This document shows positions 3,762 through 62,732 of a stretch of 64,000 nt of DNA, piece by piece. Under the pieces are notes generated by a model that was not told the origin of the DNA, did not search any database, and was given only the letters and a program-made list of their open reading frames with translations. Position numbers and translations under genes: made by a program. Numbering within the stretch: position 1 is the first letter of the stretch; each line of letters begins with the position of its first letter. This stretch comes from Bacteroidota bacterium (GTDB taxonomy: Bacteria > Bacteroidota > Bacteroidia > Palsa-965): the NCBI GenBank assembly GCA_031412295.1, contig JANOCU010000008.1, positions 100,921 to 164,920 on the forward strand. Direction: 5' to 3'.

Positions 3762-3905
3762 GTTAGTTGTTTGTTGTTTGTTGTTTGATGTTAGTTGTTT
3801 TGGCATTAAGATTTTGTTTTTCGCTCATTAATTCAATCCTTGAACTACTACCACAAACCACAAACAATCCATTTATGAACAACAAACGACTAACAACAAA
3901 CAACC
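3762..3905. repeat. Inverted pair of heptamer arrays (gttgttt / caaacaa) filling the tilS-pabB spacer
   Basis: The left side reads gttagttgtttgttgtttgttgtttgatgttagttgtttt. The right side reads ccacaaaccacaaacaa...aacaacaaacgactaacaacaaacaacc. The arms are imperfectly complementary. ORFs 3763..3963 and 3767..4000 are just translations of it. Confidence 0.85.
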
Positions 3906-17493: not shown

Positions 17494-17856
17494 TCACATA
17501 ATCATATTTCTTGCCGTGCGAATTACAAACAGATCGCCAAAACCCTGATCAAAAATCAATTGGGGTGGGACGCGTGAATCAGAACAGCACACGACTACCG
17601 CAAAAGAGTTTTGTACCCCTGATAATGATGCACGCAAATCAAATGATTCGTTGGGATGCAATTGCCTGTTTTCCTGAAATCTCTTATTGCCTTCAATAAG
17701 TCGGGTGAGCGGATTTTCTGATTGTGTAAGTTTCTTAGGATAATTTAAAAAAACAATGCATGCAGTTGCTATGATCCCGATTATGAGAATTCCAATGAAA
17801 TATTTGATTAAAAAAATTTTCTTTTGCATTTTTTCTCTAACAGTATCAGAATTCAT
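17494..17856 (-). pseudogene. Beta-carbonic anhydrase, N-terminal fragment (truncated / frameshifted)
   Basis: An N-terminal TM/signal is followed by LIEGNKRFQEN and VVVCCSDSRVPPQLIFDQGFGDLFVIRTA, matching the first zinc-ligand region of beta-CA. The ORF stops right after this. A shifted frame reads VNGSNEHVDLIIMD (a possible remnant of the GS.EY...L.V.LIVV.GH block), but the H..C ligand pair is absent. Confidence 0.5.
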
Positions 17857-30848: not shown

Positions 30849-33800
30849 TCACCGCATTAAGTACATTTTGCCCCAGCCTTGATTGATGAATTGGTCGGCG
30901 CCGCTTTCTCTTTGTTCGATGCTCTGACCGTCGATGCGGGTGATGATGCGGTAGAGGTAAACACCATTCGCAAGCTGATCGCCGAACTGGTCGCGGCCGT
31001 CCCAGGAATAGGCGGTGATGTTTCTTCCGATGTGCAGATCACCGAATTCATCGCGGTTGATTTCACGAACTACTTTTCCGGTGATGGTCATGATCTGTAT
31101 GGTGAAAAGATCAGGGACTTCTGTGCCGGTGAGCGTGAAAACAAATTGTGTTGAAGATGAAAACGGATTCGGGTAATTTAAAACATTCGTGATCGTTGAG
31201 TGATTAATGACTTCAAACGAAATTTCAAAATCAATTAATCCCGATTGGTTATCAGAACGGTCTTTCGCCTGCACGATCAATTCATAAATACCGTCTTCTG
31301 CACACGTCGGGTTAAAAAGAATTTTGCAGGAATTATTCGGAAGCACTGCAGGAATGAATTGCATATCCGCGCCCCACTGGATAAGCTGTGCAACTTGCTG
31401 TGAAGGTTTACGCAGGAAAACATTAAAATCACTTGTGTCATTCAACGCGAGAAATTGATTTTCATCTTTGAGCGTAATGAGAATTCCCGGCTTTCCTGAA
31501 ACAAGATCTTTGTCCATGATGTGCACACCATCGAATGTTACATCAAGCAATGGATTAACCTGGTCAGTGCTAACAGTGAACGGAACCATCAGCACATTAT
31601 TGAAATGATATTGTTCCAGCTGCGAATTGCTGTTTCCAACCGGATTTACTTCGAGCCACAATTCATTTGCTCCTGCATAACCTGTTGTGCTCACTGAAAC
31701 GGTATCAATGAACCATTGGAATCCTGTAAACGGACCGACGCGCAGTTTCTGCGGAAGATTATGCCGCACGCGATTTTTGTCAATGATCCAATAGGTGAGG
31801 AGCAGCGAATCCGGCAATGACCACGGCGTTAAGTTTTGAATCGCAACAGCAAGTTTTGCATTAGCACCTTCCTGCAATGTATCGCTGTAAAAAGAAAATG
31901 CGCGCGGTGGATTTACTGCAACATCCGGCATCGGCGAATACAATACGTGCCAGCGTTCCATTTGTGCAGGCGTTCGTGAAGTATCATCTTTCATCTTCGC
32001 AACAAGACGGATATAAGGATATGCAGAAGCATTTACATAAGGAAGCAATGAATTAATATCTGTAGAATCTTCTACGAATGTTGTAAGCGAATCCTGTATG
32101 CCATTCGCAGTAATTCCATAAAGCACAACAGAAACAATATCATTATCCGGCACTTCTTCTGCATGCTGCTTCCAGTGAAAAGATCCCCACGCTGCAGCAG
32201 GCCCGATAACAGGTGAAGTAATTTGTCCTGTATTCCAATTCGTAACAAATGTATCCTGCAAAGTGATGAGTGAATTTTGATTTGCACCAACTACTTCTGT
32301 TGCATTTCCTGCAGGTCCGTTTTTTACACCCCAAACAATGAATGCAGTGGTGTCTTGTACGCTTGCCAGCGTGTCACTTCCGATTGTAGAAAACTGTGTA
32401 AGTAATGCAGGATTGTACGATTGTGCATTGTGATAATACTGGCTATACACTAACACATGCGCACCGGTTGGAATAGCTGCAATGAAATTTTCAATGTTTT
32501 GTCTTCCAGCAGGTGTATCATCAGCAAAATCATACGCGTAAAAAGTTTGCGGATAACAAATACAATTTCCAGCAGGACCAGTCGCATTTGTATCAAGATA
32601 TTGCCATGGATTTCCTGATACCGGATCAATTACTGCAATCGTAACACCACCACCGCCGCAGCTGAAGACACAAGAGAAAATATGCTGAATGCTATTATCA
32701 ATTTTGTAATACACTTCATTCCATGGAATGGTCGCTCCGTAAATTCCATTCTTAACGAAAATAGTTTTTACATCATTCACGAATTCAAAATCTCTTGCAG
32801 TGCGATCTAATTTTACAAACTGGTAATTATCTTTCGTGAATTGAAAAATATGATCTTGTCCCCAACCGACTTGATTCGCGATGTATTGAAACGAACTTTC
32901 TCTCCAGAGAAAAACATCTGCGGTTGTTAATGAATCCGGGCTGACACGCCAGAAATAAACCATGCTATCGGTCGACATTAAATTCGGCGACCAATTCACC
33001 ACACCACCTGGAGCAAGCACAACATACGTTTGTTTAAATGCGCTGTTGAACAAATCGGTTGTGTCCAATTCGAAGCGATATGTTTTCATCGGTTCAAGCG
33101 GATTTACCGTTGAAGCTTTTAGCGTAATGGTGTCAGCAGGAATAACAGCGTATTCATATGGATAAACCGGAACGATTGCGCTTCCACGGATGAGCAGATC
33201 AATATCAGGAACGGTTGCGTTATTGTTTTCATTCAGCTCATCAATCTGCCCGTAGAAATCGACGGTGATCCTGATGTGATTTAAACCAATTCCTCTTTGC
33301 TGATCAACAGGAATTTTAAATTTGATCGTATCCCTGAAAAGTGTGGATGGAATTTGCAGGAATTGCGAAGTGGTATCTCCCATAGGAAAACGTCTGAACA
33401 ATTGAACGATCATTGTATCCGTAATCGCTCTGCCGACGTTCGTGATCTTCGCATAAACAGAAATACTGTCGGGCTGTGAATCCTGGTCAAACCAAACATC
33501 TGCATTTGTAATTTGATAATCGGGTTTCGGAAAAGAATTGATCACAACTGCAGGGTCGCCTTCCAATGTCATTTCCATCAATGTTGTTTTCAGGAAAATA
33601 TCCTGCGGGTAAGCAAGCTCTGCCTGGCGAACACTCCATTGAATACATTCACCAATACTTTCTCCGTACAATGTTTGTCCGACAGATCGATAAATATTGG
33701 TGGAATACAAATTCAAAAATCCAGGAAGACCTAATCCGACAGAAGCGAGGTAACCGATTGTTCCTTTCTGCTCAATCAATGTAAACGCTTCACTCGAACT

Positions 33801-35834
33801 TATTCCGGGTGAATGAATATCTCCTGCGTAACATGAATTCGCCAATAAGAATGGATAACGATCTACATTATTGTAGGTTGTCGGATCGTCAATGCTTTGA
33901 TCAAAACCGGTTCCTGAAGCATGACCGAAAAATGTCATGATAGAAATTCCGGCTTCAATTCTGTCGCGCAACGAATCGGATTGATTGATTTGAATCGGTG
34001 ATGATGATGTTTTTAAATACGTTTGAACAAATCCCCCGAAAGAAGTGTCTTCGATGATTGTTTCATAACCATTTAAGTAACCTGAAAATTGGTTTTGCTC
34101 AATTGAATTTGATCCGCCACCAAAATGCAAAACATGTTTCATCCATTCTGCAGGAGGTTGACTTTCGTATGAAATCACTTTATTCAAATACCATTGCGCC
34201 TGTGCAGAATCGCGTGCTGCAATTCTTCCTGTAGGAATAGCAGGTTCCCATAATGTTCCGTTCAATCCTGCAGTAAGTGAATTATCGCAGGGCGGATATC
34301 CGTAAGTAGGAACAAGATTCGGTGCTAACGGATGTGAACGTGCATAGTCTGCGTAAATGGATTTTCCCATTAAAAATAAATGCGCAGGCGGTGTTGGATA
34401 ATTAGCGATCATGAACGCAGAAAAATTTCTGATCGATAATGGATGTTGTGCAACACCGTAAGCAAACTGATCATACAATTCAGAAACATCTGCCAGCACA
34501 ACGTTTCTTGTTCCGCCTGCGAATGAGCTTCTGTATGTTTTGTATTGCTGCGCGACATTCATCAACGATTTGTGCGCAACGATAACAAAAGCAGAATCAA
34601 CAGGAGTGAAACCGAAATCTGTGAATGAAGCTGTAGGCGTTACAGGAGCAAGCACAGTTACATTTCTAACGCTTGCTTCATCTACAACAGCAAATGGTTT
34701 TTCAGTTCCGTTTCCATTATTTACAAGCGCATGATGAACCGGACCAACGGAAGTTGAAGTGATACGTTCGTGATTAAAAAAATCATACACACGAACAGGT
34801 CCGCTTCCGCCAACGCCTGTCAATTGCAAATACGATTTCCCTGCAGGATCATCAGGAAGGTGACCGAAGAAACGAGTTCTCCCTTCCATATGAAACGTGT
34901 GCGGATAATCGAGCAAAATGTAAGCAATTGCAGTGCGACCTGAAGAAACAGAAGCGTTTGGATTAATGCTGCTGACAACAAACGTGGTGAAGCTTGCACC
35001 TAAAACAGCAGGATCGATCGTATTAAAATTATACGTGTGCACCTGGTAACCATTATACACCGTATCAAAAAGCACGGAAGGAAACTGAATTTGAATTTCG
35101 TTATCCAGCGGAATATTTCCATCATCCGAATGCGAACCGACTTTTACCTGCACGCGTGCATCAGGGCGACCGGGAGCTGTATAAGCATTTGCAGAATATA
35201 CATTTCGCGAAGCAGAAGTGGCATAATCAAAAGGCAGATCATAAAATCCTTCGGAAGAAATAAAATCAGGATCAGTTAAGCCTAACGCATTTTGCACTCC
35301 GGGAAAATAAGCTGCTGCACCGATAAATGTTTCGCGGTTGGTAAACCATTGCGCAGGTGTGTAGGTAGAAAATGCTGTATCAGCAGTATTTGTAAAACGA
35401 CGGTTTGCAAGTGAAGAATTCCATGTAAGAAAATAAACTGCTGTATCCGTATAAATGCTGTAGTACGGATTCAGAATTGTATTTCCATTGAGATAAAGCG
35501 CGGAATCTTTTGCACCGTCATTGTGAATGCCATAAAATTCAAGAAAATCGGTGCCGTCGAATGTTCCGTCTGTTTCGCCCTGCACCCATATATATTCTTC
35601 CAAACCATTATGAAAAAGCTGGAAGTTTCTCGGATCAACGGAGCTGAGCGGAACACCAATTGCATTCATCGCATTGCTGAGCACGGTGGAATCGACACGA
35701 TAAATTCCATCGTTGGCAACTTTGATCTTAAGATATTTCTGGGAATAGACGATCCATTCATTTCCATAGCTCTGTGCGGCTGCGGAAACAGTTAAGAGTA
35801 AAGAAACAACGAATAACGTGTAAAGTCGTTTCAT
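30849..35834 (-). CDS. C25-family (gingipain/PorU-like) cysteine peptidase with T9SS C-terminal sorting domain
   Basis: 1661 aa with a signal peptide. The catalytic-type dyad context is MTFFGHASGTG ... PFLLANSCYAGD. The C-terminus NYPNPFSSSTQFVFTL...GVYLYRIITRIDG fits the T9SS sorting domain. Confidence 0.75.
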   Translation of the reverse strand: MKRLYTLFVVSLLLTVSAAAQSYGNEWIVYSQKYLKIKVANDGIYRVDSTVLSNAMNAIGVPLSSVDPRNFQLFHNGLEEYIWVQGETDGTFDGTDFLEFYGIHNDGAKDSALYLNGNTILNPYYSIYTDTAVYFLTWNSSLANRRFTNTADTAFSTYTPAQWFTNRETFIGAAAYFPGVQNALGLTDPDFISSEGFYDLPFDYATSASRNVYSANAYTAPGRPDARVQVKVGSHSDDGNIPLDNEIQIQFPSVLFDTVYNGYQVHTYNFNTIDPAVLGASFTTFVVSSINPNASVSSGRTAIAYILLDYPHTFHMEGRTRFFGHLPDDPAGKSYLQLTGVGGSGPVRVYDFFNHERITSTSVGPVHHALVNNGNGTEKPFAVVDEASVRNVTVLAPVTPTASFTDFGFTPVDSAFVIVAHKSLMNVAQQYKTYRSSFAGGTRNVVLADVSELYDQFAYGVAQHPLSIRNFSAFMIANYPTPPAHLFLMGKSIYADYARSHPLAPNLVPTYGYPPCDNSLTAGLNGTLWEPAIPTGRIAARDSAQAQWYLNKVISYESQPPAEWMKHVLHFGGGSNSIEQNQFSGYLNGYETIIEDTSFGGFVQTYLKTSSSPIQINQSDSLRDRIEAGISIMTFFGHASGTGFDQSIDDPTTYNNVDRYPFLLANSCYAGDIHSPGISSSEAFTLIEQKGTIGYLASVGLGLPGFLNLYSTNIYRSVGQTLYGESIGECIQWSVRQAELAYPQDIFLKTTLMEMTLEGDPAVVINSFPKPDYQITNADVWFDQDSQPDSISVYAKITNVGRAITDTMIVQLFRRFPMGDTTSQFLQIPSTLFRDTIKFKIPVDQQRGIGLNHIRITVDFYGQIDELNENNNATVPDIDLLIRGSAIVPVYPYEYAVIPADTITLKASTVNPLEPMKTYRFELDTTDLFNSAFKQTYVVLAPGGVVNWSPNLMSTDSMVYFWRVSPDSLTTADVFLWRESSFQYIANQVGWGQDHIFQFTKDNYQFVKLDRTARDFEFVNDVKTIFVKNGIYGATIPWNEVYYKIDNSIQHIFSCVFSCGGGGVTIAVIDPVSGNPWQYLDTNATGPAGNCICYPQTFYAYDFADDTPAGRQNIENFIAAIPTGAHVLVYSQYYHNAQSYNPALLTQFSTIGSDTLASVQDTTAFIVWGVKNGPAGNATEVVGANQNSLITLQDTFVTNWNTGQITSPVIGPAAAWGSFHWKQHAEEVPDNDIVSVVLYGITANGIQDSLTTFVEDSTDINSLLPYVNASAYPYIRLVAKMKDDTSRTPAQMERWHVLYSPMPDVAVNPPRAFSFYSDTLQEGANAKLAVAIQNLTPWSLPDSLLLTYWIIDKNRVRHNLPQKLRVGPFTGFQWFIDTVSVSTTGYAGANELWLEVNPVGNSNSQLEQYHFNNVLMVPFTVSTDQVNPLLDVTFDGVHIMDKDLVSGKPGILITLKDENQFLALNDTSDFNVFLRKPSQQVAQLIQWGADMQFIPAVLPNNSCKILFNPTCAEDGIYELIVQAKDRSDNQSGLIDFEISFEVINHSTITNVLNYPNPFSSSTQFVFTLTGTEVPDLFTIQIMTITGKVVREINRDEFGDLHIGRNITAYSWDGRDQFGDQLANGVYLYRIITRIDGQSIEQRESGADQFINQGWGKMYLMR

Positions 35835-35900
35835 GCAAGAGGGTCAATAACATGTGCAGAGAAACGTCAACGGATTTGCCGCGGGTAAAAAACGTTTGCT

Positions 35901-36995
35901 CTATTTGGGTTTACGGTTGATGTCGAGCTTGATCGAAAAAATATTCGAGTACAGTGCCACAGACTGATCGCCAACATCGGTTAATGCATAATCGATGGTG
36001 AGTGATTTAATTTTAATTCCTATTCCAAGATTCGGCTGTATCGTTGTTACATCTTTTCCGAAAACATCTTTTGCTTTCTGAATATTTCCGATTCCGCCGC
36101 GCAGGAAGATCATGTTCTTAAACCCGGCTTCAATTCCGAGCACCGGCTCTAAGCTCCAGACATTTGTTTTGATCAATACATTTCGCTGACTGTCGAATGT
36201 GTTGATGAAATCCAATTCACCTGCGATGGAAAATTTCTTTTGTTTGCCGAAAGGAACTTTTTTCATTGCCCCGAAGATCAAACGCGGAAGAGTAAGCTCA
36301 AGTGAATTTGACGGAATAATATTTCCTGTTGCAAGAAACACATCCTGCATTTCCTGTGAAAGATTAAAGCTCCATGCATTGAATGTTGAAGTAACATCAC
36401 GCACAACAGCACCGAATTTCCAGCCTTTATAATCGTACTGCGCGCCTGCATCAATTCCGAATCCCCACGCACCGGCAAAGTCACCGATCTTCCTGCGGAT
36501 AATTTTTACGTTCGCACCATAATTCAAACCTGCTATTGGAGATTTACGTGCGTAAGAAAAAATGAATGCATAATCCTGCGCCGAAAAAGTGGTGATGCGG
36601 TCGTAATTAATATTTCCGCCGGCATCGATCAATTGAGTTGTATTCGGAATATCATCAACAGCAAAACGAATTACGCTGAAACCGAAAGAGCTGACGCTAT
36701 CAATTCTTCCTGCGACAGAAGCATAATCGTATTTAGCGATAGAAGCAAAATATTCGGCGTGCATCAGTCCAACCTGCGCATTGCTTTTTATTCCGAGCAG
36801 ACCTGCAGGATTCCAATAGCCGGAAGTCACGTCATCGACACCTGCAACACTGGCATTTGCCATCGCAAGTGAACGTGCGCCCACACCAATAGCGAGAAAC
36901 TCGTTACTGTATTTAGGTGCTGATGTCTGGGCAATAGAAGGGCTGATGGAAAAAACCGTTGCAATTACCGCAAATAGGGGAAAAATCCGCTTCAT
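35901..36995 (-). CDS. PorV/PorQ-family outer-membrane beta-barrel protein
   Basis: 364 aa with a signal peptide. The N-terminal region EFLAIGVGARSLAMANASVAGVDDVTSGYWNPAGL resembles the PorV/PorQ family signature. Alternating beta-strand pattern, with the last residues of typical OMP type. Confidence 0.65.
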   Translation of the reverse strand: MKRIFPLFAVIATVFSISPSIAQTSAPKYSNEFLAIGVGARSLAMANASVAGVDDVTSGYWNPAGLLGIKSNAQVGLMHAEYFASIAKYDYASVAGRIDSVSSFGFSVIRFAVDDIPNTTQLIDAGGNINYDRITTFSAQDYAFIFSYARKSPIAGLNYGANVKIIRRKIGDFAGAWGFGIDAGAQYDYKGWKFGAVVRDVTSTFNAWSFNLSQEMQDVFLATGNIIPSNSLELTLPRLIFGAMKKVPFGKQKKFSIAGELDFINTFDSQRNVLIKTNVWSLEPVLGIEAGFKNMIFLRGGIGNIQKAKDVFGKDVTTIQPNLGIGIKIKSLTIDYALTDVGDQSVALYSNIFSIKLDINRKPK

Positions 36996-37043
36996 AATTT
37001 ATCCTATAAAGTTAAGTGAATCCTTTGACGTCTCCAAAACGAA

Positions 37044-37982
37044 TCAGGGGCGGATATATTGCCTGAGTTCGGCGCAAAATCGTCGTGTAAAAGCCAATGC
37101 CCCTGCTTTATTGAGATGAGCGGGATCAGCGAAGAAGGTTTTGTTTTGCCTGATGGAGTCGTGCGAGAGATCGATGAAAGGTAAATTATGCTTTATTGCA
37201 AAGCTGCTGAACTCGCCGATAAACCTTGAATAATTGACCTCTTTTTCTTCCCTGCGGTAAAAAAGTGGTGATACGACAAGGATCAATTGCGAACCGTTTT
37301 TCTTGCAGATGGCTTCAATTCTTTCCAATTCCTGCCAAATCAGTGCGGAGGGATGATTGTTAAAAACAGGAATCGTCATTGTATCCAAATCGCCGAGTCG
37401 TGTGTTTTGCGGATGCGGTGCAAAGCCAAGCTCAAAATCTGCATCATATTTTCCCTGCGTGCCGGTATAGCCGCGTAAGGAAGAATTTAAATAGCGTGCC
37501 GAATAATAAGGCATGCTGTAAAACGGCAGGTATTTAAAATAAGTAAATCGTTTGTCGCGCTCTTTTAAACCTTCATATAATTTTTCATTTTCGAGATAAG
37601 CGAAATACCGCGGGAAGCTGTAAACGGTATCGGGATTATCGGAAAAAGAATGGAGGTCAAGATTCAGCACAACATATTCCGGTGCTTTGCTGTTTACAAG
37701 ATAAGCTTCGAGCGTTGCACGTGTGAATGGCATAATGGAACCAACCATTCCGATGTTGAATGATTTTAATCCTGTTGCGGAATCAATGAGTGGTGTGTAA
37801 AATTGACATTCCGCGCGTGATGAACCGATGACGATTAAATTGAAATTATTTTTCTCAAGAAATGTTTGACGCAGCTTTGCAAATTCACCTTTCGCATTTC
37901 TCCGTATTCCTGCATACTCGATCATACGAACCGCATAAAGCAGCACGATGGCGAGAGAGGCGAAGATTAAAGCACGTTTCAT
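37044..37982 (-). CDS. Membrane-anchored SGNH/DltD-like putative O-acyltransferase partner
   Basis: 312 aa with an N-terminal TM anchor. Block-I-like LIVIGSSRA and block-V-like DPAHLN (D-x-x-H) are present. It lies directly downstream of an MBOAT gene, as in the AlgI/AlgJ, PatA/PatB and DltB/DltD pairs. Confidence 0.55.
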   Translation of the reverse strand: MKRALIFASLAIVLLYAVRMIEYAGIRRNAKGEFAKLRQTFLEKNNFNLIVIGSSRAECQFYTPLIDSATGLKSFNIGMVGSIMPFTRATLEAYLVNSKAPEYVVLNLDLHSFSDNPDTVYSFPRYFAYLENEKLYEGLKERDKRFTYFKYLPFYSMPYYSARYLNSSLRGYTGTQGKYDADFELGFAPHPQNTRLGDLDTMTIPVFNNHPSALIWQELERIEAICKKNGSQLILVVSPLFYRREEKEVNYSRFIGEFSSFAIKHNLPFIDLSHDSIRQNKTFFADPAHLNKAGALAFTRRFCAELRQYIRP

Positions 37983-38054
37983 TTTTTATAATTAATTACG
38001 ACTATAGCCATTTCCAAATTCTTCCATCTATAACCGCGATTGGTATACATGATT

Positions 38055-38432
38055 TTATCTTGCCATTTTCTGTGAGGAAATATATAATTTTTGGTTTGTT
38101 GTTTTTATATAAAAAACCCACATATACAAAGGGTTCTTGTTCTTTAATATAACATCCAAGAACAGTTGAGTCTTTTTCACGTGCTTTTCTATGGGGTATA
38201 TTTCCATTTTATCAAAACTGTTTTCTTGATTTCGGATTTTTGAAATAACCAAATCGCAGTATATAGTAGCTCCTATTTTATCTATATGATGTTTCTCTAT
38301 AACAGCTGCACAGGGGAGCGTTGTATCCTTACAATCCTCAAGAAAAGATGTAATATTCCGAGTCGCATCTTCTTTGCAGGAAATAGTCAAGACAAGGCTG
38401 CACATAAATAAAATCTTTATAATGTTTTTCAT
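38055..38432 (-). CDS. Hypothetical small lipoprotein
   Basis: The preferred start MKNIIKILFMCSLVLTISCKED (ATG at 38432) gives a lipobox. The longer track ORF overlaps the MBOAT gene. Confidence 0.45.
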   Translation of the reverse strand: MKNIIKILFMCSLVLTISCKEDATRNITSFLEDCKDTTLPCAAVIEKHHIDKIGATIYCDLVISKIRNQENSFDKMEIYPIEKHVKKTQLFLDVILKNKNPLYMWVFYIKTTNQKLYISSQKMAR

Positions 38433-38449
38433 CGTGCAAGCAATTTTAT

Positions 38450-40000
38450 TTAGAAATGAAAATAAATGAATTCGTTTGAGCTGAAATTTCCGATGGTGAA
38501 GAGAAGAACAAATAGTAACGTATAAAATGCAGGACGTAACCATTTTTCATACGAAGGAAGTTTGTTTATCCAGCCATTTTCTTCGTTCAGCTCTTTCATA
38601 AAAAGAAAAAGTATCCCGCATAAAGCCAAAAGCAACGGGAAGAAATCTTTCAGCGTCCGCAATTCATAATAAGTTGTAATCAAATTATAATCGAAGCTGA
38701 AAATTTTCCGGTAAATAATTCCAAGATCATCAAATGAATTCGCCCTGAACGCGATTAAGGAAATGGTGTGGAATAAAATGAGGTAGAACCAGCCGGCCGC
38801 ACTTCCCAGCGCTGTTCGTTTGTAGTTTGTTGTTTGTTGTTCCTTCGTCCCTCGTCCCCTTTTCGTCCCTCGTCCCTTTTTCAAAAGAATTTCTCCCAAA
38901 TAGAAAACCCCATGCATCGCGCCCCAAATTACAAATGTCCAGCTTGCGCCGTGCCAGAGTCCGCTGATTAAAAAGACGAGAAAAATATTCAGCAGGAATC
39001 TATTGTACGTGCCGCGATTTCCTCCCAGGCTGATGTAGAGATAATCGCGGAACCAGGTGGTCATGCTGATGTGATTGCGCGTCCAGAATTCCTGCAGCGA
39101 TTTTGAAAGCAGCGGCCTGCGCCAATTCAGCTGAAGATCGTAGCCGAAAAATTTTGCAACACCGGTGGCGATATCGGAATAACCTGAAAAATCACAATAC
39201 ACTTGCACGACAAAAAAGAATCCTGCGACAAGAAGTGAGAGTCCGTTGTAATTTTCAGGATGATTAAAAAGCGGGTTAACAAAATCGGCAAGTCGATCGG
39301 CGATGGCAATCTTTTTAAAAAATCCCCAGAGCACGAGGCGTGAACCGAGGAGAATATTTTCTTTGCTTAAATATTTCCGCTCATGAAATTGCACTCCGAG
39401 ATCGGTAAAGCGTGCGATGGGTCCGGCTACAAGCTGCGGAAAAAACGAAACGAACAACGCAAAAATTCCAGGATCTTTTTCAGCTTTTATTGTTCCGCGA
39501 TACACATCGATGACATAACCCATGGAGTGAAACGTGTAAAATGAAAGTCCGACCGGGATAAGAATCGCTTCCAGGTAATGCGGCGACTGATCGGAGAAAT
39601 AAGAACCGGCGAATGAAAATGTATTGTAGAGGAAAGCGAAGTATTTAAATCCGGCTAAACAGGCGAGGTTTGTTATAATACTAATCAATAGCCATGTTTT
39701 GTCCGCACGTTTGTTGTTTGTTGTTTGTTGTTCGTTTGTTGTTTGTTGTTCTGAATTTTGAATCTTGATCCCGATAGGTATCGGGAGAATGTTGAATTTT
39801 GAATTTTGAATTTTTACAGCACAGTACCAATCGATCAAGGTTGTTCCTGCTAATAAAATTCCGAACCAGGGATTCCAGCTCATGTAGAAATAGTAGCTGG
39901 CTGCGAGCAACAAATATCTTCTCCATACAACAGGAACGAGCCAATGGAGGATGAACACCACGGGCAGGAAAATCATGAAGTGGAGCGAGTTGAAGAGCAT
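38450..40000 (-). CDS. MBOAT family O-acyltransferase (AlgI/DltB/PatA-like) carrying two in-frame repeat insertions
   Basis: 516 aa and polytopic, with the invariant-His context LISGLWHGASWTFVIWG. Two low-complexity segments are encoded by intergenic-type word repeats (see the repeat features at 38827 and 39709). Confidence 0.85.
   Translation of the reverse strand: MLFNSLHFMIFLPVVFILHWLVPVVWRRYLLLAASYYFYMSWNPWFGILLAGTTLIDWYCAVKIQNSKFNILPIPIGIKIQNSEQQTTNEQQTTNNKRADKTWLLISIITNLACLAGFKYFAFLYNTFSFAGSYFSDQSPHYLEAILIPVGLSFYTFHSMGYVIDVYRGTIKAEKDPGIFALFVSFFPQLVAGPIARFTDLGVQFHERKYLSKENILLGSRLVLWGFFKKIAIADRLADFVNPLFNHPENYNGLSLLVAGFFFVVQVYCDFSGYSDIATGVAKFFGYDLQLNWRRPLLSKSLQEFWTRNHISMTTWFRDYLYISLGGNRGTYNRFLLNIFLVFLISGLWHGASWTFVIWGAMHGVFYLGEILLKKGRGTKRGRGTKEQQTTNYKRTALGSAAGWFYLILFHTISLIAFRANSFDDLGIIYRKIFSFDYNLITTYYELRTLKDFFPLLLALCGILFLFMKELNEENGWINKLPSYEKWLRPAFYTLLFVLLFTIGNFSSNEFIYFHF
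38827..38890. repeat. In-frame intragenic repeat insertion 2 in the MBOAT gene (gggacga + caacaaa words)
   Basis: The coding strand aaaaagggacgagggacgaaaaggggacgagggacgaaggaacaacaaacaacaaactacaaacg translates to KKGRGTKRGRGTKEQQTTNYKR. The same words occur in spacers 62329-62431 and 3762-3905. Confidence 0.85.
39709..39813. repeat. In-frame intragenic repeat insertion 1 in the MBOAT gene (attcaaa words + tcccgata..tatcggga hairpin + caacaaa words)
   Basis: The coding strand aaaattcaaaattcaaaattcaacattctcccgatacctatcgggatcaagattcaaaattcagaacaacaaacaacaaacgaacaacaaacaacaaacaacaaac translates to KIQNSKFNILPIPIGIKIQNSEQQTTNEQQTTNNK. The core cattctcccgata.ctatcgg matches the intergenic element at 45691-45711. 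Confidence 0.9.
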
Positions 40001-40043
40001 GGTTTAAATGTGCAAATGGGGGAATGTGCAAATGTGCAAATTA

Positions 40044-40242
40044 AATGTGCTAGTGTGCTAATGCGGTAATGTGCTAATGCCGGAGGAGTTTGAAATAGTG
40101 AAACTCTCAAAGAGTTGCGCGTATGCTTTGCGCGCAACTCTTGTAGGGTTGAATGGCGAATAAATTAATCTGAGCAAGGTTGTAATGTCCGATTGTCCTT
40201 AACACACATTAGCACATTACCGCATTAGCACACTAGCACATT
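40044..40242. repeat. Perfect 36-bp inverted repeat separated by 127 bp, with an internal 12-bp-stem hairpin
   Basis: Left arm aatgtgctagtgtgctaatgcggtaatgtgctaatg (40044-40079) pairs with right arm cattagcacattaccgcattagcacactagcacatt (40207-40242). The inner hairpin is aagagttgcgcg (40110-40121) / cgcgcaactctt (40131-40142). It sits in the divergent MBOAT / pssA spacer. Confidence 0.95.
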
Positions 40243-40268
40243 CATTCTTAGCGCTATCTTTGTCGTCG

Positions 40269-41604: not shown

Positions 41605-41697
41605 GGTTGTTTGTTGTTAGTTGTTTGTCGTTCCTTATGTTTCGATAATTCCCACTATTTTTTAACTACAAACAACAAACTTTTTTAAACAACAAAC
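41605..41697. repeat. Inverted pair of gttgttt / caaacaa heptamer arrays downstream of purS
   Basis: The left side is ggttgtttgttgttagttgtttgtcgtt. The right side is aactacaaacaacaaac ... aaacaacaaac. Confidence 0.85.
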
Positions 41698-41705
41698 ATT
41701 TTTTT

Positions 41706-42329: not shown

Positions 42330-42362
42330 ACACACAGCACCCCACCGGAGAGTCTGCGGAAC

Positions 42363-42498
42363 GGTAAGCAAAGTCCTACACGGAAATCAGCGTGACGGTA
42401 AGCATAATGCTGCCCGAATATCTGCGTACCGGTATACATAACGCTGCCCGAATATCTGCGTACCGGTAAGCATTGTGCTGCATGTGATTTGGTAATCT
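42363..42498. repeat. 34-bp tandem array, about 4 units
   Basis: Units are ggtaagcaaagtcctacacggaaatcagcgtgac / ggtaagcataatgctgcccgaatatctgcgtacc / ggtatacataacgctgcccgaatatctgcgtacc / ggtaagcattgtgctgcatgtgatttggtaatct. They abut directly with no spacers. Confidence 0.9.
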
Positions 42499-42650
42499 TC
42501 CCGATGAAAGATCGGGATGGTAACTGGGTAATTGAAAAAAATATTGGTAGAATTATAATTTCTTGCTGCTAATTATTGCATGAAAAAGGCGAACGGAAAC
42601 GTTCGCCTTTCATTTTGAATTTTTTTAATCGCAACAATTACCCAGTTACC
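42499..42650. repeat. Empty copy of the ggtaactgggtaattg inverted-repeat element (hairpin tcccgat-gaaag-atcggga plus 16-bp perfect IR around a 100-bp core)
   Basis: The IR arms are ggtaactgggtaattg (42519-42534) and caattacccagttacc (42635-42650). The ends are homologous to the ORF-bearing copy at 51907-52496. The core holds the bidirectional terminator hairpin. Confidence 0.85.
42585..42610. terminator. Bidirectional rho-independent terminator between convergent genes
   Basis: aaaggcgaacg-gaaa-cgttcgccttt is an 11-bp perfect stem. It is flanked by an A-run on the left and tcatttt on the right. Confidence 0.75.
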
Positions 42651-43552: not shown

Positions 43553-43668
43553 CGGTAATAAAAAAGCAGTGTGTTCTTCACGGTAATAAAAAGCTGTGTG
43601 TGTTCTTTACGGTAATAAAAAAGCGGCGGGTGTTCTGCGCGGTAATAAAAAGCGGGGGGCGTTCTTAA
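43553..43668. repeat. 29-30-bp tandem array, 4 units, preceded by a 9-bp-stem hairpin
   Basis: Units are ggtaataaaaaagcagtgtgttcttcac / ggtaataaaaagctgtgtgtgttctttac / ggtaataaaaaagcggcgggtgttctgcgc / ggtaataaaaagcggggggcgttctta. The hairpin is attaccgcg...cgcggtaat at 43531-43558. Confidence 0.9.
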
Positions 43669-45655: not shown

Positions 45656-45821
45656 AATTCAAAATTCAAGATTCAAGATTCAAAATTGGACATTCTCCCG
45701 ATAGCTATCGGTTTCAACATTCAAAATACTCTTGAATTTAAAGTCATAGCCTAAAACTCAAAACTCAAAACTCGAAACCGAAACTCGAAACTCTGAACTA
45801 AAAACTCCGAACTAAAAACTA
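45656..45821. repeat. Composite intergenic element: attcaaa heptamers, hairpin ccgatagctatcgg, then ctcaaaa to ctccgaa heptamers running into a stop codon
   Basis: The left part reads aattcaaaattcaagattcaagattcaaaatt and the palindrome lies at 45698-45711. The right part reads ctaaaactcaaaactcaaaactcgaaaccgaaactcgaaactctgaactaaaaactccgaactaaaaacta. Confidence 0.9.
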
Positions 45822-51906: not shown

Positions 51907-52496
51907 ATCTGGTAATCTGGTAACTGGGTAATTGAATTGCGATTGAAAGAAAAAAATTGAAATAAAAAACTAAATGAATAAAATTATGACATCTGAAGAT
52001 TTGAAGAAACGAACCAAATTGTTTGCAATTAATGCTATTCATTTTTCTAAAACGTTGCCCAAAAATGATGAAGGGTTTATTGTGAAGAAGCAGCTTATTC
52101 GTTGTGCAACTTCTGTGGGTGCGAATTATAGGGCGGTTTGTCGTGCGCGTTCTACGGCAGACTTTATTTCAAAGCTTGCAATTGTAGAAGAAGAAGCCGA
52201 CGAAACATGTTTTTGGTTAGAAGTGCTCGAAGAAAGTGGAATGATAAGCAAAGAATCCGTAGCGAAGCTGTACGATGAATCAACACAATTAACCGCAATC
52301 TTCTCCGCCAGCCGAAAAACCAGCAGAATGAACAATGATAAATACAAATAGTTTTATTAGCACTAAGTGTAACCTTCCCGATTTATCGGGACCTCACTTA
52401 TAAATATTTTAAATACCCACTTTCAATATTTTAATTACCCACTTTCAATATTTTAATTACCCACTTATCAATTTCCCAGTTACCAGATTACCAGAT
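51907..52496. repeat. ORF-bearing copy of the ggtaactgggtaattg inverted-repeat element (28-bp IR, 27/28 match) enclosing the four-helix-bundle gene
   Basis: The left arm is atctggtaatctggtaactgggtaattg (51907-51934). The right arm is caatttcccagttaccagattaccagat (52469-52496). Inside lie the ORF 51974..52351, the hairpin tcccgat-tt-atcggga (52376-52391), and 22-bp direct repeats cccactttcaatattttaatta x2.5 (52416-52474). Confidence 0.9.
51974..52351 (+). CDS. Four-helix-bundle protein (23S rRNA intervening-sequence protein / Avd-like family)
   Basis: 125 aa. The stretch LIRCATSVGANYRAVCRARSTADFISKLAIVEEEADETCFWLEVL is the family hallmark as I recall it (TIGR02436-type). Confidence 0.85.
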   Translation: MNKIMTSEDLKKRTKLFAINAIHFSKTLPKNDEGFIVKKQLIRCATSVGANYRAVCRARSTADFISKLAIVEEEADETCFWLEVLEESGMISKESVAKLYDESTQLTAIFSASRKTSRMNNDKYK

Positions 52497-52507
52497 TACT
52501 AAATCAA

Positions 52508-52687
52508 GTGCATGATAATGTTGATGGCTTAGGTTACGTGCATGATAATGTTGATGGCATAGATTACGTGCAGCAGTATGGTGATGGTACAGGTTACTTG
52601 TAGCAGTATGCTGATTGTTCAGGTTACGTGCAGCAGTATGTTGATGGTTCAGGCTAGGTGCAGGAGTATGTTGATAGTATTTGTTGC
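52508..52687. repeat. 30-bp tandem array, 6 units
   Basis: Units are gtgcatgataatgttgatggcttaggttac / gtgcatgataatgttgatggcatagattac / gtgcagcagtatggtgatggtacaggttac / ttgtagcagtatgctgattgttcaggttac / gtgcagcagtatgttgatggttcaggctag / gtgcaggagtatgttgatagtatttgttgc. Confidence 0.9.
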
Positions 52688-52760
52688 GCCAGTCGGCTTA
52701 TCTTTGCACACGGTGATGATTGATGATCACAGTAAATTAACAACAACATTCAACATTCTT

Positions 52761-53591
52761 ATGCGCACGTTTCTTTTTGTTTGCTTATTTATTTCATCAT
52801 CACTTTTCGCCCAGCGCGATTCTGTTATTAACGGAATCAAATGTCATCTCATTTCGGAAAGCCGTGATACCGGAACTGTGTGGATCCAGCGGAAGATCGT
52901 AAATAAAAAAAAGAATACTGAAAAATTCGGTGGACGCTATTGGGAATTTTATCCGGGTGGAAAATTAAAAGCATCAGGCTATTATAAAAATGGGAAGCGT
53001 GATGAAAAGTGGATTCGTTATTATCAAAACGGACAACGATCGGAGGAAGGATATTTTGACAATGGTTTAAAATCAGATCTCTGGATGACGTATTTTGAAT
53101 CCGGTAAAATGTCGTGGAAAGGAAACTTTTTTAAGAATATTCGTTCAGGTGTCTGGCGATATTTTTATGAAGACGGGAAATTAAAAGGCATGACACGATA
53201 CAGGATCAAAACACAAAAGATTGCGAAAAAACCAAAGGCCGGAGTAAAAAGAGGAATAGCAATAGGTGCTTACAAGGAAGTAACGTACACCATTTCTCCT
53301 GCTGATTCGCTTGTGGAATATTACCCGGATGGAAAATTACGGACACGGATCACATACGGACATGAAGGTGGATTGACCGGTAGTTATGCAATGTATTATG
53401 ATAATGGAACAATTAAAACACGCGGCCAATATTCTGAAGGGAAAAAAACCGGTACATGGGAATATTTTTGTTCTTCCGGTACGTTGTATTTTAAAGGAAC
53501 TGAACTCAATCCAAATTATACAGATGGACCGTGTGAGTTTGTGGAAGAACTACCGTGGCTGAAATGGGAAGTGGAGCAAATCACACTTTAA
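52761..53591 (+). CDS. MORN-variant repeat protein (YwqK-like), secreted
   Basis: The ATG at 52761 gives signal peptide MRTFLFVCLFISSSLFAQ. There are repeated G.....G.Y.NG...G.W..YY.NG units. The track start at 52578 translates the 30-bp tandem array. Confidence 0.75.
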   Translation: MRTFLFVCLFISSSLFAQRDSVINGIKCHLISESRDTGTVWIQRKIVNKKKNTEKFGGRYWEFYPGGKLKASGYYKNGKRDEKWIRYYQNGQRSEEGYFDNGLKSDLWMTYFESGKMSWKGNFFKNIRSGVWRYFYEDGKLKGMTRYRIKTQKIAKKPKAGVKRGIAIGAYKEVTYTISPADSLVEYYPDGKLRTRITYGHEGGLTGSYAMYYDNGTIKTRGQYSEGKKTGTWEYFCSSGTLYFKGTELNPNYTDGPCEFVEELPWLKWEVEQITL

Positions 53592-56107: not shown

Positions 56108-56330
56108 TAGTTCGGAGTCCGCCGCGCGGATTAGTTTTTAGTTCGGAGAATTAGGTTGGAGTTTTTAGTGATTAGTTCGGAGAGTTAGTTCGGAGTTTTT
56201 AGTGGTTAGTTCTGAGAGTTTAGTTGAAAGAGAATAATTTATAATTCTCCTAACAAAAAATTGAAACTCTGAACCCTAAACCCTAAACCCGAAACTTTTC
56301 TCCGAACTAACCACTCCGAACTAACCACTA
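56108..56330. repeat. tagttcggag / ctccgaacta word arrays in inverted orientation, with core hairpin tccgccgcgcgga
   Basis: The core lies at 56118-56130. The 17-bp IR is tagtggttagttctgag (56200-56216) versus ctccgaactaaccacta (56314-56330), with 1 mismatch. The right arm abuts the M43 gene stop. The centre contains gaaccctaaaccctaaacccgaaac. Confidence 0.9.
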
Positions 56331-60675: not shown

Positions 60676-60743
60676 AAGTTGTCAGTTTTCAGTTGTCGGT
60701 TGTCAGCATAGCCTTTCGACTGACTACTGACAACTGACTACTT
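60676..60743. repeat. Imperfect inverted heptamer arrays (gttgtca / tgacaac) in the atpD-atpC intercistronic spacer
   Basis: The left arm is aagttgtcagttttcagttgtcggttgtcag. The right arm is actgactactgacaactgactactt. The arms are roughly 80 percent complementary. Confidence 0.85.
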
Positions 60744-60745
60744 TT

Positions 60746-62584
<1,839 letters not shown>

Positions 62585-62650
62585 GCACGCCCATAAAAAA
62601 ATGTACGAATTACGATGTCGAATTACTTCCCACTATTCTCTATTCACTTT

Positions 62651-62732
62651 TCACCTGTCACCTGTCACCCGTCACCCGTCACCCGTCACCAATCACCAAT
62701 CACCAATCACCACCAACCACCAACCACCAACC
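62651..62732. repeat. Stepwise-mutating heptamer array
   Basis: The units run (tcacctg)x2 (tcacccg)x3 (tcaccaa)x3 tcaccac (caaccac)x2 caacc, with the 7-nt phase uninterrupted. Confidence 0.95.

What the first reader, a model, noticed from the sequence alone, without database searches (positions are those of the whole stretch)
38827..39813. Intergenic-type repeat elements inserted in frame, twice, inside an MBOAT acyltransferase gene
Seen: two stretches of the coding strand are built entirely from the same words and hairpin used in spacers.
Insertion 1 (39709-39813) contains attcaaa heptamers, then cattctcccgatacctatcggga, then attcaaa, then caacaaa heptamers. It matches the intergenic element at 45656-45725 with 21/22 identity over the hairpin core. 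It translates without stops as KIQNSKFNILPIPIGIKIQNSEQQTTNEQQTTNNK.
Insertion 2 (38827-38890) contains gggacga words (as at 62329-62431) plus caacaaa words. It translates as KKGRGTKRGRGTKEQQTTNYKR.
Both fall between hydrophobic segments, so they are probably in loops, and the invariant His region is intact.
Established knowledge: Rickettsia palindromic elements are the classic case of repeats inserted in frame into protein genes.
Inference: this repeat system can colonise ORFs when the word set is stop-free in the used frame. In addition, gain or loss of one 7-nt unit would frameshift the gene, giving a potential, if low-copy, phase-variation switch for surface O-acylation.
Basis: partly seen in the sequence, partly recalled or inferred. 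Interest (0 to 1): 0.75.

Follow-up and report, generated by a model that had tools for sequence, protein, structure and literature searches.

The report
Spacer repeats colonise two enzyme loops
Two floppy loops of a conserved membrane acyltransferase in an uncultured Bacteroidia lineage are built, in frame, from the same 7-base word arrays and small hairpins that fill this genome's gene spacers. Relatives keep rewriting these two loops, but nothing points to an on/off switch.

Summary
The MBOAT gene (38450-40000, minus strand, 516 aa) carries two in-frame segments: K63-K97 (39710-39814) and K374-R395 (38816-38881). They are made of ATTCAAA, CAACAAA and GGGACGA heptamer arrays plus an 18-nt palindrome. 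The same words, and a 60-nt composite at 45668-45727 (87% identical), occur in spacers.

- **Loops:** both segments are disordered inter-helix loops. H310 and H350 are invariant. dN/dS outside the loops is 0.05-0.11.
- **Orthologues:** distant ones (469-473 aa) have short 16-residue loops.
- **Clade-wide pattern:** every close relative has heptamer arrays at these two loops, with different words and lengths. In 231 kb from 12 genomes, MBOAT is the only verified CDS containing such arrays (22 arrays).
- **Turnover:** relatives about 95-96% identical in protein differ only by in-frame indels (18, 21, 30, 42 nt) or wholesale replacement.
- **Copying:** in one relative (L083), a 63-nt piece including native MBOAT codons (90%) and a 35-nt hairpin (94%) are shared between loop 2 and nearby spacers.
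- **Phase variation:** not supported. Perfect tracts are short and no frameshifted allele was seen. Loops are identical across 8 near-identical sequences on 19 contigs.

This is a new variant of known kinds: in-frame repeat insertions (Rickettsia palindromic elements) and heptanucleotide arrays.

The parts
38450..40000 (-). MBOAT-family O-acyltransferase CDS (516 aa), the host of both repeat segments
   Evidence: Pfam PF03062, E 1.2e-23. The AF2 model's best fold match is DltB 6bug. H310 and H350 are invariant. dN/dS is 0.05-0.11.
39791..39814 (-). Insert 1, left ATTCAAA heptamer array (3.3 perfect units). It starts inside the conserved K-I of the native loop edge.
   Evidence: The conserved 'LKIxxS' edge is seen in alignment A1.
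39769..39786 (-). Insert 1, 18-nt palindromic core tcccgatacctatcggga (7-bp stem, 4-nt loop, -9.9 kcal/mol). It is read as L-P-I-P-I-G.
   Evidence: It belongs to a hairpin family with the same TCCCGAT/ATCGGGA stem at 42499, 45696 and 52376, and in L088.
39751..39768 (-). Insert 1, right ATTCAAA words (tcaag attcaaa attcag)
39709..39750 (-). Insert 1, CAACAAA array with an 18-nt (in-frame) super-repeat gaacaacaaacaacaaac x2.3
   Evidence: TRF period 18, 95% matches. It matches the spacer module in L001 2657-2703 at 44/47; that module has a 20-nt super-repeat.
38842..38876 (-). Insert 2, GGGACGA array (KRGRGT x2; 18-nt super-repeat)
38816..38841 (-). Insert 2, CAACAAA array (EQQTTNYKR)
45656..45727 (+). 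Spacer counterpart of insert 1: ATTCAAR array, palindromic core, then ATTCAAA words
   Evidence: 52/60 identity to 39755-39814, E 3e-14.
62329..62431 (+). Spacer GGGACG-type array, the word family of insert 2
62495..62526 (+). Spacer hairpin CCTGAAGG..CCTTCAGG beside the GGGACG array. The same hairpin type sits in frame in MBOAT loop 2 of relative L083.
3762..3904 (.). Spacer with inverted CAACAAA/TTTGTTG arrays, the word family shared with both inserts
41606..41703 (.). Spacer with inverted CAACAAA-type arrays
42499..42517 (+). Spacer copy of the TCCCGAT/ATCGGGA hairpin (loop GAAAG)
52376..52391 (+). Spacer copy of the TCCCGAT/ATCGGGA hairpin (loop TT)

Best explanation
The genome belongs to an uncultured Bacteroidia lineage. 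Its spacers are filled with tandem 7-8-nt word arrays, often as inverted pairs, and with small palindromic hairpins that sit inside those arrays.

Two inter-helix loops of a conserved, functional MBOAT acyltransferase act as permissive sites for this repeat material. They are disordered and K/R-rich, and I infer that they are cytoplasmic.

Proposed steps:
1. Array-containing segments of about 35-65 nt are copied non-reciprocally between spacers and the loops, in both directions. The likely route is ectopic gene conversion or template switching seeded on shared words.
2. Small hairpins insert into existing arrays.
3. Arrays grow, shrink and are replaced by multi-unit slippage and duplication.
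4. Purifying selection on the enzyme passes only variants whose total length is a multiple of 3 and whose words are stop-free in the sense orientation.

The product is a hydrophilic, unstructured linker that is probably neutral for catalysis. The loops therefore became hypervariable across the clade while the rest of the protein stays conserved.

Shown: the repeats, their in-frame state, their loop location, clade-wide turnover, the copy events, and purifying selection. Inferred: the copying mechanism, neutrality, and cytoplasmic topology.
For: Repeats and their spacer counterparts.

Loop location:
- AF2 gives coil at residues 70-94 and 377-396, with pLDDT below 50 over residues 72-94 and 382-392, between helices 44-69/95-136 and 354-376/397-419.
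- The fold matches DltB.

Lineage specificity:
- Orthologues of 469-473 aa have 16-residue loops.
- Expansion occurs only in the window's clade and its sister clades.

Clade-wide pattern:
- Each of 11 orthologous loci has heptamer arrays in the loops, but with different words: attcaaa, caacaaa, cacggaa, caaccac, ccgccaa, aacccgg, gggacga.
- Several of these words (CAACAAA, ATTCAAA, CACGGAA, TCACCAA) also form spacer arrays in the loci sampled, some in the same locus (L001, L081).
- In 231 kb there are 22 arrays in MBOAT and 45 elsewhere. None of the 45 lies in a verified CDS.

Copying:
- L083 loop 2 shares 57/63 nt with spacer 7798-7860. The shared stretch includes native codons for GEILLAKWR.
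- L083 loop 2 shares 33/35 nt of a palindromic hairpin with spacer 6324-6358. The 7798 copy is the 'empty site' without the hairpin.

Selection filter:
- The super-repeat is 18 nt in the CDS and 20 nt in the spacer homologue.
- Indels of 18, 42 and 30 nt separate L004 from L089 at 96.4% nt identity.
- A 7-aa (21-nt) gap and full replacement of loop 2 separate P0004 from P0123 at 95%.
- All 22 in-gene arrays are stop-free in sense.

Functional gene: dN/dS is 0.05-0.11, and synteny with the partner gene is conserved.
Against: - Why only this gene, and both of its loops, host arrays in every genome sampled is not explained by simple permissiveness. The sample is one neighbourhood (231 kb), not whole genomes.
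- No mobilising enzyme was found. No transposase or RAYT is present in the window.
- The left part of loop 1 is ATTCAAA-type in most relatives and overlaps the native K-I-x-x-S edge. Part of the array could therefore have arisen in situ rather than by import.
- Neutrality and cytoplasmic topology are inferred. The basis is the positive-inside rule and the position one transmembrane helix after the extracellular-facing catalytic His (PMC11035591). Neither was measured.
Confidence: 0.68

Rival explanations
1. Phase-variable contingency locus. Gain or loss of single 7-nt units switches the MBOAT gene off and on.
For: The unit length is not a multiple of 3. The arrays lie inside the CDS. Two relatives have 4.9 perfect units. 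Heptamer tracts are slippage-prone in general (Mrazek 2007, as cited in PMC4679880).
Against: - In this gene the longest perfect tract is about 3.3 units, and the arrays are interrupted.
- All orthologous and cluster-member sequences examined are in frame.
- Eight cluster members, 99-100% identical and found on 19 contigs, have identical loops despite an (attcaaa)x4.9 tract.
- Differences between close relatives are 18, 21, 30 and 42 nt. No allele is out of frame.
- Consensus assemblies would hide minority OFF alleles, so the idea is not excluded.
Confidence: 0.07
2. Purely in-situ origin. The loop arrays arose locally by slippage from native codons (KIQNS = aaaattcaaaattca). They resemble spacer arrays only because the same mutational bias makes the same words everywhere, with no transfer between sites.
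For: - The left edge of loop 1 is ATTCAAA-type in most relatives and overlaps the conserved K-I.
- P0018 has the array-like peptide KIQNSEFKNS in a loop of basal length (no DNA seen for it).
- Orthologous spacers keep their word type with drift.
Against: - Irregular, non-periodic matches cannot come from convergence. These are the 63 nt at 90% and 35 nt at 94% in L083, the 60-nt composite at 87% in the window, and the 47-nt module at 94% against L001.
- Loop 2 is wholly replaced between proteins 95% identical.
- A hairpin is present or absent in otherwise identical array contexts.
Confidence: 0.12
3. The arrays are functional. One version: they are cis-regulatory RNA or DNA sites, binding sites of a regulator that also acts on the spacer arrays. 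Another version: the hypervariable peptides are adaptive, for example by modulating donor docking or escaping an inhibitor.
For: - The arrays persist at exactly two sites in all clade members.
- Inverted arrays in the adjacent divergent spacer keep their complementarity while the words drift.
- A regulator-binding role was proposed for TAACTGA arrays (PMC4679880).
Against: - Neither word, length nor peptide is conserved across relatives.
- The AF2 model gives both segments as disordered.
- Only the small core hairpin has significant RNA structure, z -2.26. Insert 2 has z -0.89.
- There are no Rfam matches.
Confidence: 0.1
4. Assembly artefact or chimeric join at repeats in a metagenome-assembled contig.
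For: The window and all relatives are metagenome assemblies. Repeats can cause misjoins.
Against: - The same two sites carry arrays in 12 independently assembled loci from ENA, JGI, NCBI and Logan.
- The frame is always intact, flanks are collinear and synteny is conserved.
- The inserts are shorter than typical reads.
Confidence: 0.02

Closest known systems
Rickettsia palindromic elements (RPEs; Ogata et al. 2000, as reviewed in PMC10969869)
   Same: Non-coding-type repeats occur in frame inside conserved protein genes, at positions compatible with fold and function, and add a peptide segment.
   Different: - RPEs are discrete elements of about 150 bp that are palindromic over their whole length. 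They belong to ten sequence families and each encodes a conserved peptide.
- Here the segments are mosaics of 7-nt word arrays plus an 18-35-nt hairpin.
- The arrays are direct, not palindromic, and the encoded peptides are not conserved.
- Only two sites in one gene are occupied, but in every member of the clade.
- The taxon is different (Bacteroidia).
Heptanucleotide simple-sequence arrays: cyanobacterial STRR (from memory), long SSRs of Mrazek et al. 2007, and TAACTGA arrays of Beggiatoaceae, Cyanobacteria and some Bacteroidetes (PMC4679880)
   Same: - Many families of tandem 7-nt words are involved, overwhelmingly intergenic.
- Stop-codon content dictates which orientation can lie in an ORF.
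- Occasional stop-free 'reverse' arrays inside ORFs were reported.
- The window also has CAACTGA arrays, one base from TAACTGA.
   Different: - Reported in-ORF cases are mostly at protein termini or in hypothetical ORFs.
- Here the arrays lie deep inside a conserved enzyme, at two loops, and persist with turnover across a clade.
- Direct evidence of loop-to-spacer copying is also new.
Small dispersed repeats (SDR) of Nostocaceae (Elhai et al. 2008; recalled from memory, paper not held; mentioned in PMC5861425) and REP/REPIN hairpins (PMC3116915)
   Same: - The elements are very small (about 18-35 nt), palindromic and dispersed.
- Stems are conserved while loops vary.
- They are found inserted within other repeats. 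One filled-versus-empty pair was seen in L083.
   Different: - Copy number could only be sampled: 4 in 64 kb.
- No associated RAYT or transposase was found in the window.
- The sequences are unrelated, and in-frame residence in a CDS is unusual for REPs.
Phase-variable SSR contingency genes (for example Haemophilus and Neisseria; PMC12721329)
   Same: A repeat unit that is not a multiple of 3 lies inside the CDS of an envelope-related gene.
   Different: The tracts are short and imperfect. No out-of-frame alleles or unit-number polymorphism were seen among near-identical strains.

Membership tests
MBOAT superfamily (PF03062) | Pfam MBOAT domain above the gathering score | tested here: met
   84.3 bits against a cut-off of 27, E 1.2e-23.
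MBOAT superfamily (PF03062) | Invariant catalytic His (and the upstream N/H motif) retained | tested here: met
   H350 (WHG) and H310 are invariant, and N309 is at least 90% conserved, in 35 orthologues.
MBOAT superfamily (PF03062) | Multi-helix MBOAT fold | tested here: met
   The AF2 model (pLDDT 78.9) matches DltB 6bug_C at E 3e-9 and TM 0.68, then HHAT and PORCN.
DltB (D-alanyl-LTA transferase) equivalog | NCBIfam TIGR04091 score above the curated cut-off | tested here: not met
   131 bits against a cut-off of 375. The partner is a 312-aa DUF1574-like protein, not DltD. The acceptor substrate is unknown.
Rickettsia palindromic element | Discrete element of about 150 bp that is palindromic over its whole length | tested here: not met
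   Only an 18-nt core pairs. The flanking arrays are direct repeats.
Rickettsia palindromic element | In-frame residence in conserved genes at structurally permissive sites | tested here: met
Rickettsia palindromic element | Conserved encoded peptide, and many unrelated host genes | tested here: not met
   The peptides differ between relatives. MBOAT is the only verified host in 231 kb.
Heptanucleotide SSR / STRR-type arrays | Tandem 7-nt units from several word families, predominantly intergenic | tested here: met
   There are 12 period-7 arrays in the window, 9 of them in spacers. Across 12 loci there are 45 spacer arrays of about 37 words.
Small dispersed palindromic element (SDR/REP-like) | Multiple dispersed copies with a conserved stem | tested here: met
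   The TCCCGAT/ATCGGGA stem occurs at 39769, 42499, 45696 and 52376, against 0.00 expected, and in L088. CCTGAAGG..CCTTCAGG occurs in the window and twice in L083.
Small dispersed palindromic element (SDR/REP-like) | Filled and empty sites showing insertion | tested here: met
   L083 loop 2 (hairpin present) against the spacer copy at 7798-7860 (hairpin absent in the same aactccg context). This is one case only.
Small dispersed palindromic element (SDR/REP-like) | Cognate mobilising enzyme (RAYT or Y1 transposase) | tested here: inconclusive
   None was found among 46 of the window's 47 ORFs of at least 120 aa (Pfam). The rest of the genome was not available.
MITE | Terminal inverted repeats and target-site duplication at the insert ends | tested here: not met
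   No TIR or TSD bounds either insert. The upstream spacer element at 40044-40242 does have 36-nt perfect inverted arms.
Phase-variable contingency locus | Long perfect tract of units not divisible by 3 | tested here: not met
   The maximum is 3.3 perfect units in this gene, and at most 4.9 in relatives.
Phase-variable contingency locus | Unit-number polymorphism, including out-of-frame alleles, among close strains | tested here: not met
   Loops are identical in 8 sequences on 19 contigs at 99-100% identity. All indels are multiples of 3. Read-level heterogeneity cannot be tested with these tools.

The most novel reading that the evidence does not exclude
This Bacteroidia lineage has an active, so far undescribed copy-and-paste process for array-plus-hairpin modules. 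It would be an analogue of cyanobacterial STRR/SDR systems. The process exchanges short segments in both directions between spacers and two specific loops of a conserved enzyme gene. That makes the loops a clade-wide hypervariable region, and possibly a targeted one, since no other CDS in 231 kb is hit. If the process is targeted or enzyme-driven, it would be a new class of very small mobile element whose insertions are visible and datable inside a protein.
Probability: 0.25. Interest if true: 0.75.

Novelty: new variant of a known kind. Interest (0 to 1): 0.55.

Why it matters
- **In-frame tolerance of 7-nt repeats.** Repeats with a unit not divisible by 3 can live for a long time inside a conserved enzyme. 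They do so only as multi-unit, stop-free mosaics. This gives a natural read-out of the selective filter: an 18-nt super-repeat in the CDS against 20 nt in spacers.
- **Tracing the repeat mechanism.** The loops are flanked by alignable coding sequence, so gains, losses, replacements and copy direction can be followed between strains. That is almost impossible in spacers. The locus is therefore a handle on the unknown mechanism that makes and spreads heptamer arrays and small hairpins in bacteria.
- **Practical use.** The result flags two sites in MBOAT enzymes that tolerate 20-45 extra residues. It also warns annotators that such low-complexity segments are real.

Tried and rejected
- **Peptide search.** I searched the 5.8-billion-protein collection with the insert peptide to find other host proteins. 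There were no scorable hits, probably because of low complexity.
- **Metagenome scan.** A scan for core plus flank gave only one locus (L088, a spacer copy), so copy number could not be estimated.
- **Rfam.** There were no matches anywhere in the window.
- **Missing DNA.** P0012 and P0123 were not retrievable because the sample files are too large. P0012 has the same palindrome in both loops in two frames, and P0123 is the loop-2 replacement case. Both rest on protein sequence only.
- **Literature.** Elhai 2008 (SDR) is not held in the library, so that comparison is from memory.
- **Other candidate in-CDS arrays.** All proved to lie upstream of the true start codons:
  - RibF ORF 62554 (Pfam starts at aa 84).
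  - L081 3709-3737 (the orthologue starts at aa 85).
  - L001 2660-2705 and L083 5241-5266 (gene calls).
- **Readings rejected.** MITE (no TIR or TSD), pseudogene (dN/dS about 0.07), assembly artefact (12 independent loci).
- **Mobilising enzyme.** A search for a transposase or RAYT among 46 of the window's 47 ORFs of at least 120 aa found none.
Full report
**1. What is there**

The ORF at 38450-40000 (minus strand, 516 aa) is an MBOAT-family O-acyltransferase.
- Pfam PF03062 matches at E 1.2e-23.
- The closest solved relatives are DltB 8jem and 6bug.
- An AF2 model (mean pLDDT 78.9) matches DltB 6bug best, then HHAT and PORCN.
- It is not a DltB equivalog. TIGR04091 scores 131 bits against a cut-off of 375.

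The gene sits in a conserved block: CDP-alcohol phosphatidyltransferase (divergent), then MBOAT, a 312-aa DUF1574-like protein, PorV and a PorU-like C25 peptidase. Relatives are uncultured Bacteroidia/Bacteroidota MAGs.

**2.

On the coding strand, insert 1 runs as follows:
- An (aaaattc)x3.3 array.
- The palindrome tcccgatacctatcggga.
- tcaag attcaaa attcag.
- A caacaaa array.

It spans 39814-39709 and encodes K63-K97. Insert 2 is a gggacga array followed by a caacaaa array. It spans 38881-38816 and encodes K374-R395.

Word dimers are far above chance and occur only in these inserts and in spacers:

| Motif | Observed | Expected |
|---|---|---|
| CAACAAA dimer | 10 | 0.11 |
| ATTCAAA dimer | 6 | 0.48 |
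| GGGACGA dimer | 3 | 0.09 |

Insert 1 and the spacer element at 45668-45727 are homologous over 60 nt (52/60, E 3e-14). The hairpin core matches at 20/21, not 21/22.

The core belongs to a dispersed hairpin family with an identical 7-bp stem (TCCCGAT/ATCGGGA) and variable loops. Further copies lie in spacers at 42499, 45696 and 52376, and in metagenome locus L088. Three exact matches compare with 0.00 expected.

Of 12 period-7 arrays in the window, three are in MBOAT and the rest are in spacers. Arrays that fall in long ORFs elsewhere lie upstream of the real start codons.

**3. The segments are loops in a functional enzyme**

- AF2 gives coil at residues 70-94 and 377-396, with pLDDT below 50 over residues 72-94 and 382-392. 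The flanking helices are 44-69/95-136 and 354-376/397-419.
- H310 and H350 are invariant in 35 orthologues.
- Outside the loops, dN/dS against 11 orthologues is 0.05-0.11.
- Loop 2 follows the single helix after the catalytic His. That His faces the extracellular side in DltB and other MBOATs (PMC11035591).
- Both basal loops are K/R-rich. I therefore infer a cytoplasmic location for both. This was not measured.

**4. Comparative picture: the main new result**

Orthologues of 469-473 aa (59-73% identity outside the loops) have short loops of constant length. In the slice used, each is 16 residues, for example AALQIEKATAQAKKKA and ILEILLKGKIRIRFLG. Expansion is confined to the window's clade and its sister clades. 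Loop 1 expansion is the older of the two.

At the DNA level, each of 11 orthologous loci carries heptamer arrays in these loops. The words differ from genome to genome: attcaaa, caacaaa, caacaat, cacggaa, caaccac, ccgccaa, aacccgg, gggacga and 8-mers. Several of these words (CAACAAA, ATTCAAA, CACGGAA, TCACCAA) also form spacer arrays in the loci sampled, some in the same locus (L001, L081).

In 231 kb from 12 genomes there are 22 period-7 arrays inside MBOAT and 45 outside. None of the 45 lies in a verified CDS.

Turnover is fast relative to the protein:
- L004 and L089 (96.4% nt identity, dS 0.06) differ in the gene only by substitutions plus three loop indels of 18, 42 and 30 nt.
- P0004 and P0123 (95% identical) differ by a 7-aa (21-nt) gap in loop 1 and a complete replacement of loop 2.

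**5. Evidence for copying between loops and spacers**

In L083 (the P0009 genome), loop 2 is a mosaic.
- Its first 63 nt match a spacer 2.2 kb away, between convergent genes, on the opposite strand (57/63, E 1e-18).
- The match extends into native MBOAT codons for the conserved helix end GEILLAKWR. This copy therefore went from gene to spacer.
- The next 35 nt are a palindromic hairpin, ccctgaagg...ccttcagggcca. It matches another spacer at 33/35, where it sits in a caaccac array.
- In MBOAT the hairpin interrupts an aactccg array. The spacer copy of that array lacks it, giving a filled-versus-empty pair.
- The same hairpin type lies beside the GGGACG array in the window's spacer at 62495-62526.

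The window's caacaaa module matches the spacer just downstream of MBOAT in L001 at 44/47. The spacer version has a 20-nt super-repeat, while the coding version has 18 nt. Both inserts in the window have 18-nt super-periods. That is the signature expected if only in-frame duplications survive in a CDS.

**6. Stop-codon filter**

Because 7 is coprime with 3, an array is read in all three frames. All 22 in-gene arrays are stop-free in sense, and 12 of 22 would also be stop-free in antisense. Among the 45 spacer arrays, 7 have stops in both orientations and 24 in one. ATTCAAA can only be read in the observed orientation, because TTTGAAT gives TGA.

**7. Phase variation**

This idea is not supported.
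- Perfect tracts are about 3.3 units here. Relatives reach at most 4.9, and spacers reach 11.
- All orthologous and cluster-member sequences examined are in frame.
- Eight cluster members at 99-100% identity, found on 19 contigs, have identical loops although they carry (attcaaa)x4.9.
- All indels seen are multiples of 3.
- Minority OFF alleles in populations cannot be excluded without reads.

**8. Interpretation**

The best reading (confidence about 0.68) has four parts:
- Two permissive, disordered loops of a functional MBOAT host the lineage's spacer repeat material.
- Segments are exchanged by non-reciprocal copying, and small hairpins insert into arrays.
- Arrays change by multi-unit slippage or duplication.
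- Selection enforces frame and stop-freeness.

Rivals are a purely in-situ origin (0.12), a regulatory or adaptive function (0.10), phase variation (0.07) and an artefact (0.02).

It remains unexplained why this gene alone, at both loops, is the host in every genome sampled.

**9. Relation to known systems**

- The locus works like Rickettsia palindromic elements: in-frame repeat segments at permissive sites (PMC10969869). It fails their defining features of a discrete element of about 150 bp that is palindromic over its whole length, a conserved peptide, and many host genes.
- The arrays are of the heptanucleotide SSR/STRR/TAACTGA kind (PMC4679880). That paper already noted that stop content restricts in-ORF orientation, and it listed a few in-ORF cases, mostly peripheral.
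- The small hairpins resemble SDR/REP elements. The SDR comparison is from memory. No RAYT was found in the window.
- I found no description of this Bacteroidia system or of clade-wide hypervariable enzyme loops built from such arrays.

**10. Verdict**

The feature is real. The phase-variation idea is not supported. Novelty: a new variant of a known kind. Interest: 0.55.

Noticed in passing
window 40001-40259 (arms 40044-40079 and 40207-40242): The divergent spacer upstream of MBOAT is a large palindrome. It has 36-nt, 100% complementary arms made of imperfect GTGCTAAT-type 8-mer arrays around a 127-nt centre with its own GC hairpin. Orthologous spacers in L004, L081 (35 nt, 97%), L085 and L086 (60 nt, 75%) keep inverted ATGTGC-type arrays while the words drift, so the arms co-vary.
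   Followed up: partly
L083 7798-7860 (minus strand): A 63-nt fragment of the MBOAT gene, made of native helix-end codons plus the GGGACG/ACTCCG array, is copied into the spacer between two convergent genes 2.2 kb upstream (57/63).
   Followed up: yes
window 42499-42517, 45696-45713, 52376-52391; L088 2624-2641: A dispersed hairpin family has an identical TCCCGAT/ATCGGGA stem and different loops (GAAAG, AGCT, TT). It is REP-like, and its genome-wide copy number is unknown.
   Followed up: partly
window 60677-60742; L083 8529-8554 and 9923-9947; L087 4463-4494 and 5908-5935: CAACTGA heptamer arrays occur, with an inverted pair in the window. The word is one base from the TAACTGA repeats described in Beggiatoaceae, Cyanobacteria and some Bacteroidetes.
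   Followed up: no
window 42353-42481, 43553-43666, 52395-52472, 52518-52675, 56131-56225: Spacers also hold longer-period tandem repeats (34, 29-30, 22, 30 and 34 nt). The 30-nt array at 52518-52675 runs into the 5' end of the maximal ORF of a MORN-repeat protein (52578-53591), probably upstream of its real start.
   Followed up: no
window 62631-62732: Long TCACCCG/TCACCAA/CACCAAC arrays lie in the 5' part of the maximal RibF ORF but upstream of the real start (the Pfam FAD_syn domain begins at aa 84). The same TCACCAA words are read in frame (PITNHQSP) in MBOAT loop 1 of P0010, P0012 and P0122.
   Followed up: partly
window 30849-40000 and loci L081-L087: The synteny MBOAT, 312-aa DUF1574-like membrane-anchored protein, PorV, PorU-like C25 peptidase is conserved. 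This hints that the acyltransferase pair is linked to the type IX secretion or cell-surface pathway. The substrate is unknown.
   Followed up: partly
window 10377-10964 and 17494-17856: Two gene fragments were seen. One is a 195-aa tyrosine-integrase piece (partial SAM-like and catalytic domains). The other is a 120-aa ORF whose C-terminus matches only the first 34 positions of beta-carbonic anhydrase.
   Followed up: no
P0012 (protein only; DNA not retrievable): This orthologue appears to carry the same palindromic core in both loops, read in two different frames (IPIAIR in loop 1, NPDSYRD in loop 2). Each copy is embedded in ATTCAAA-encoded peptide.
   Followed up: partly
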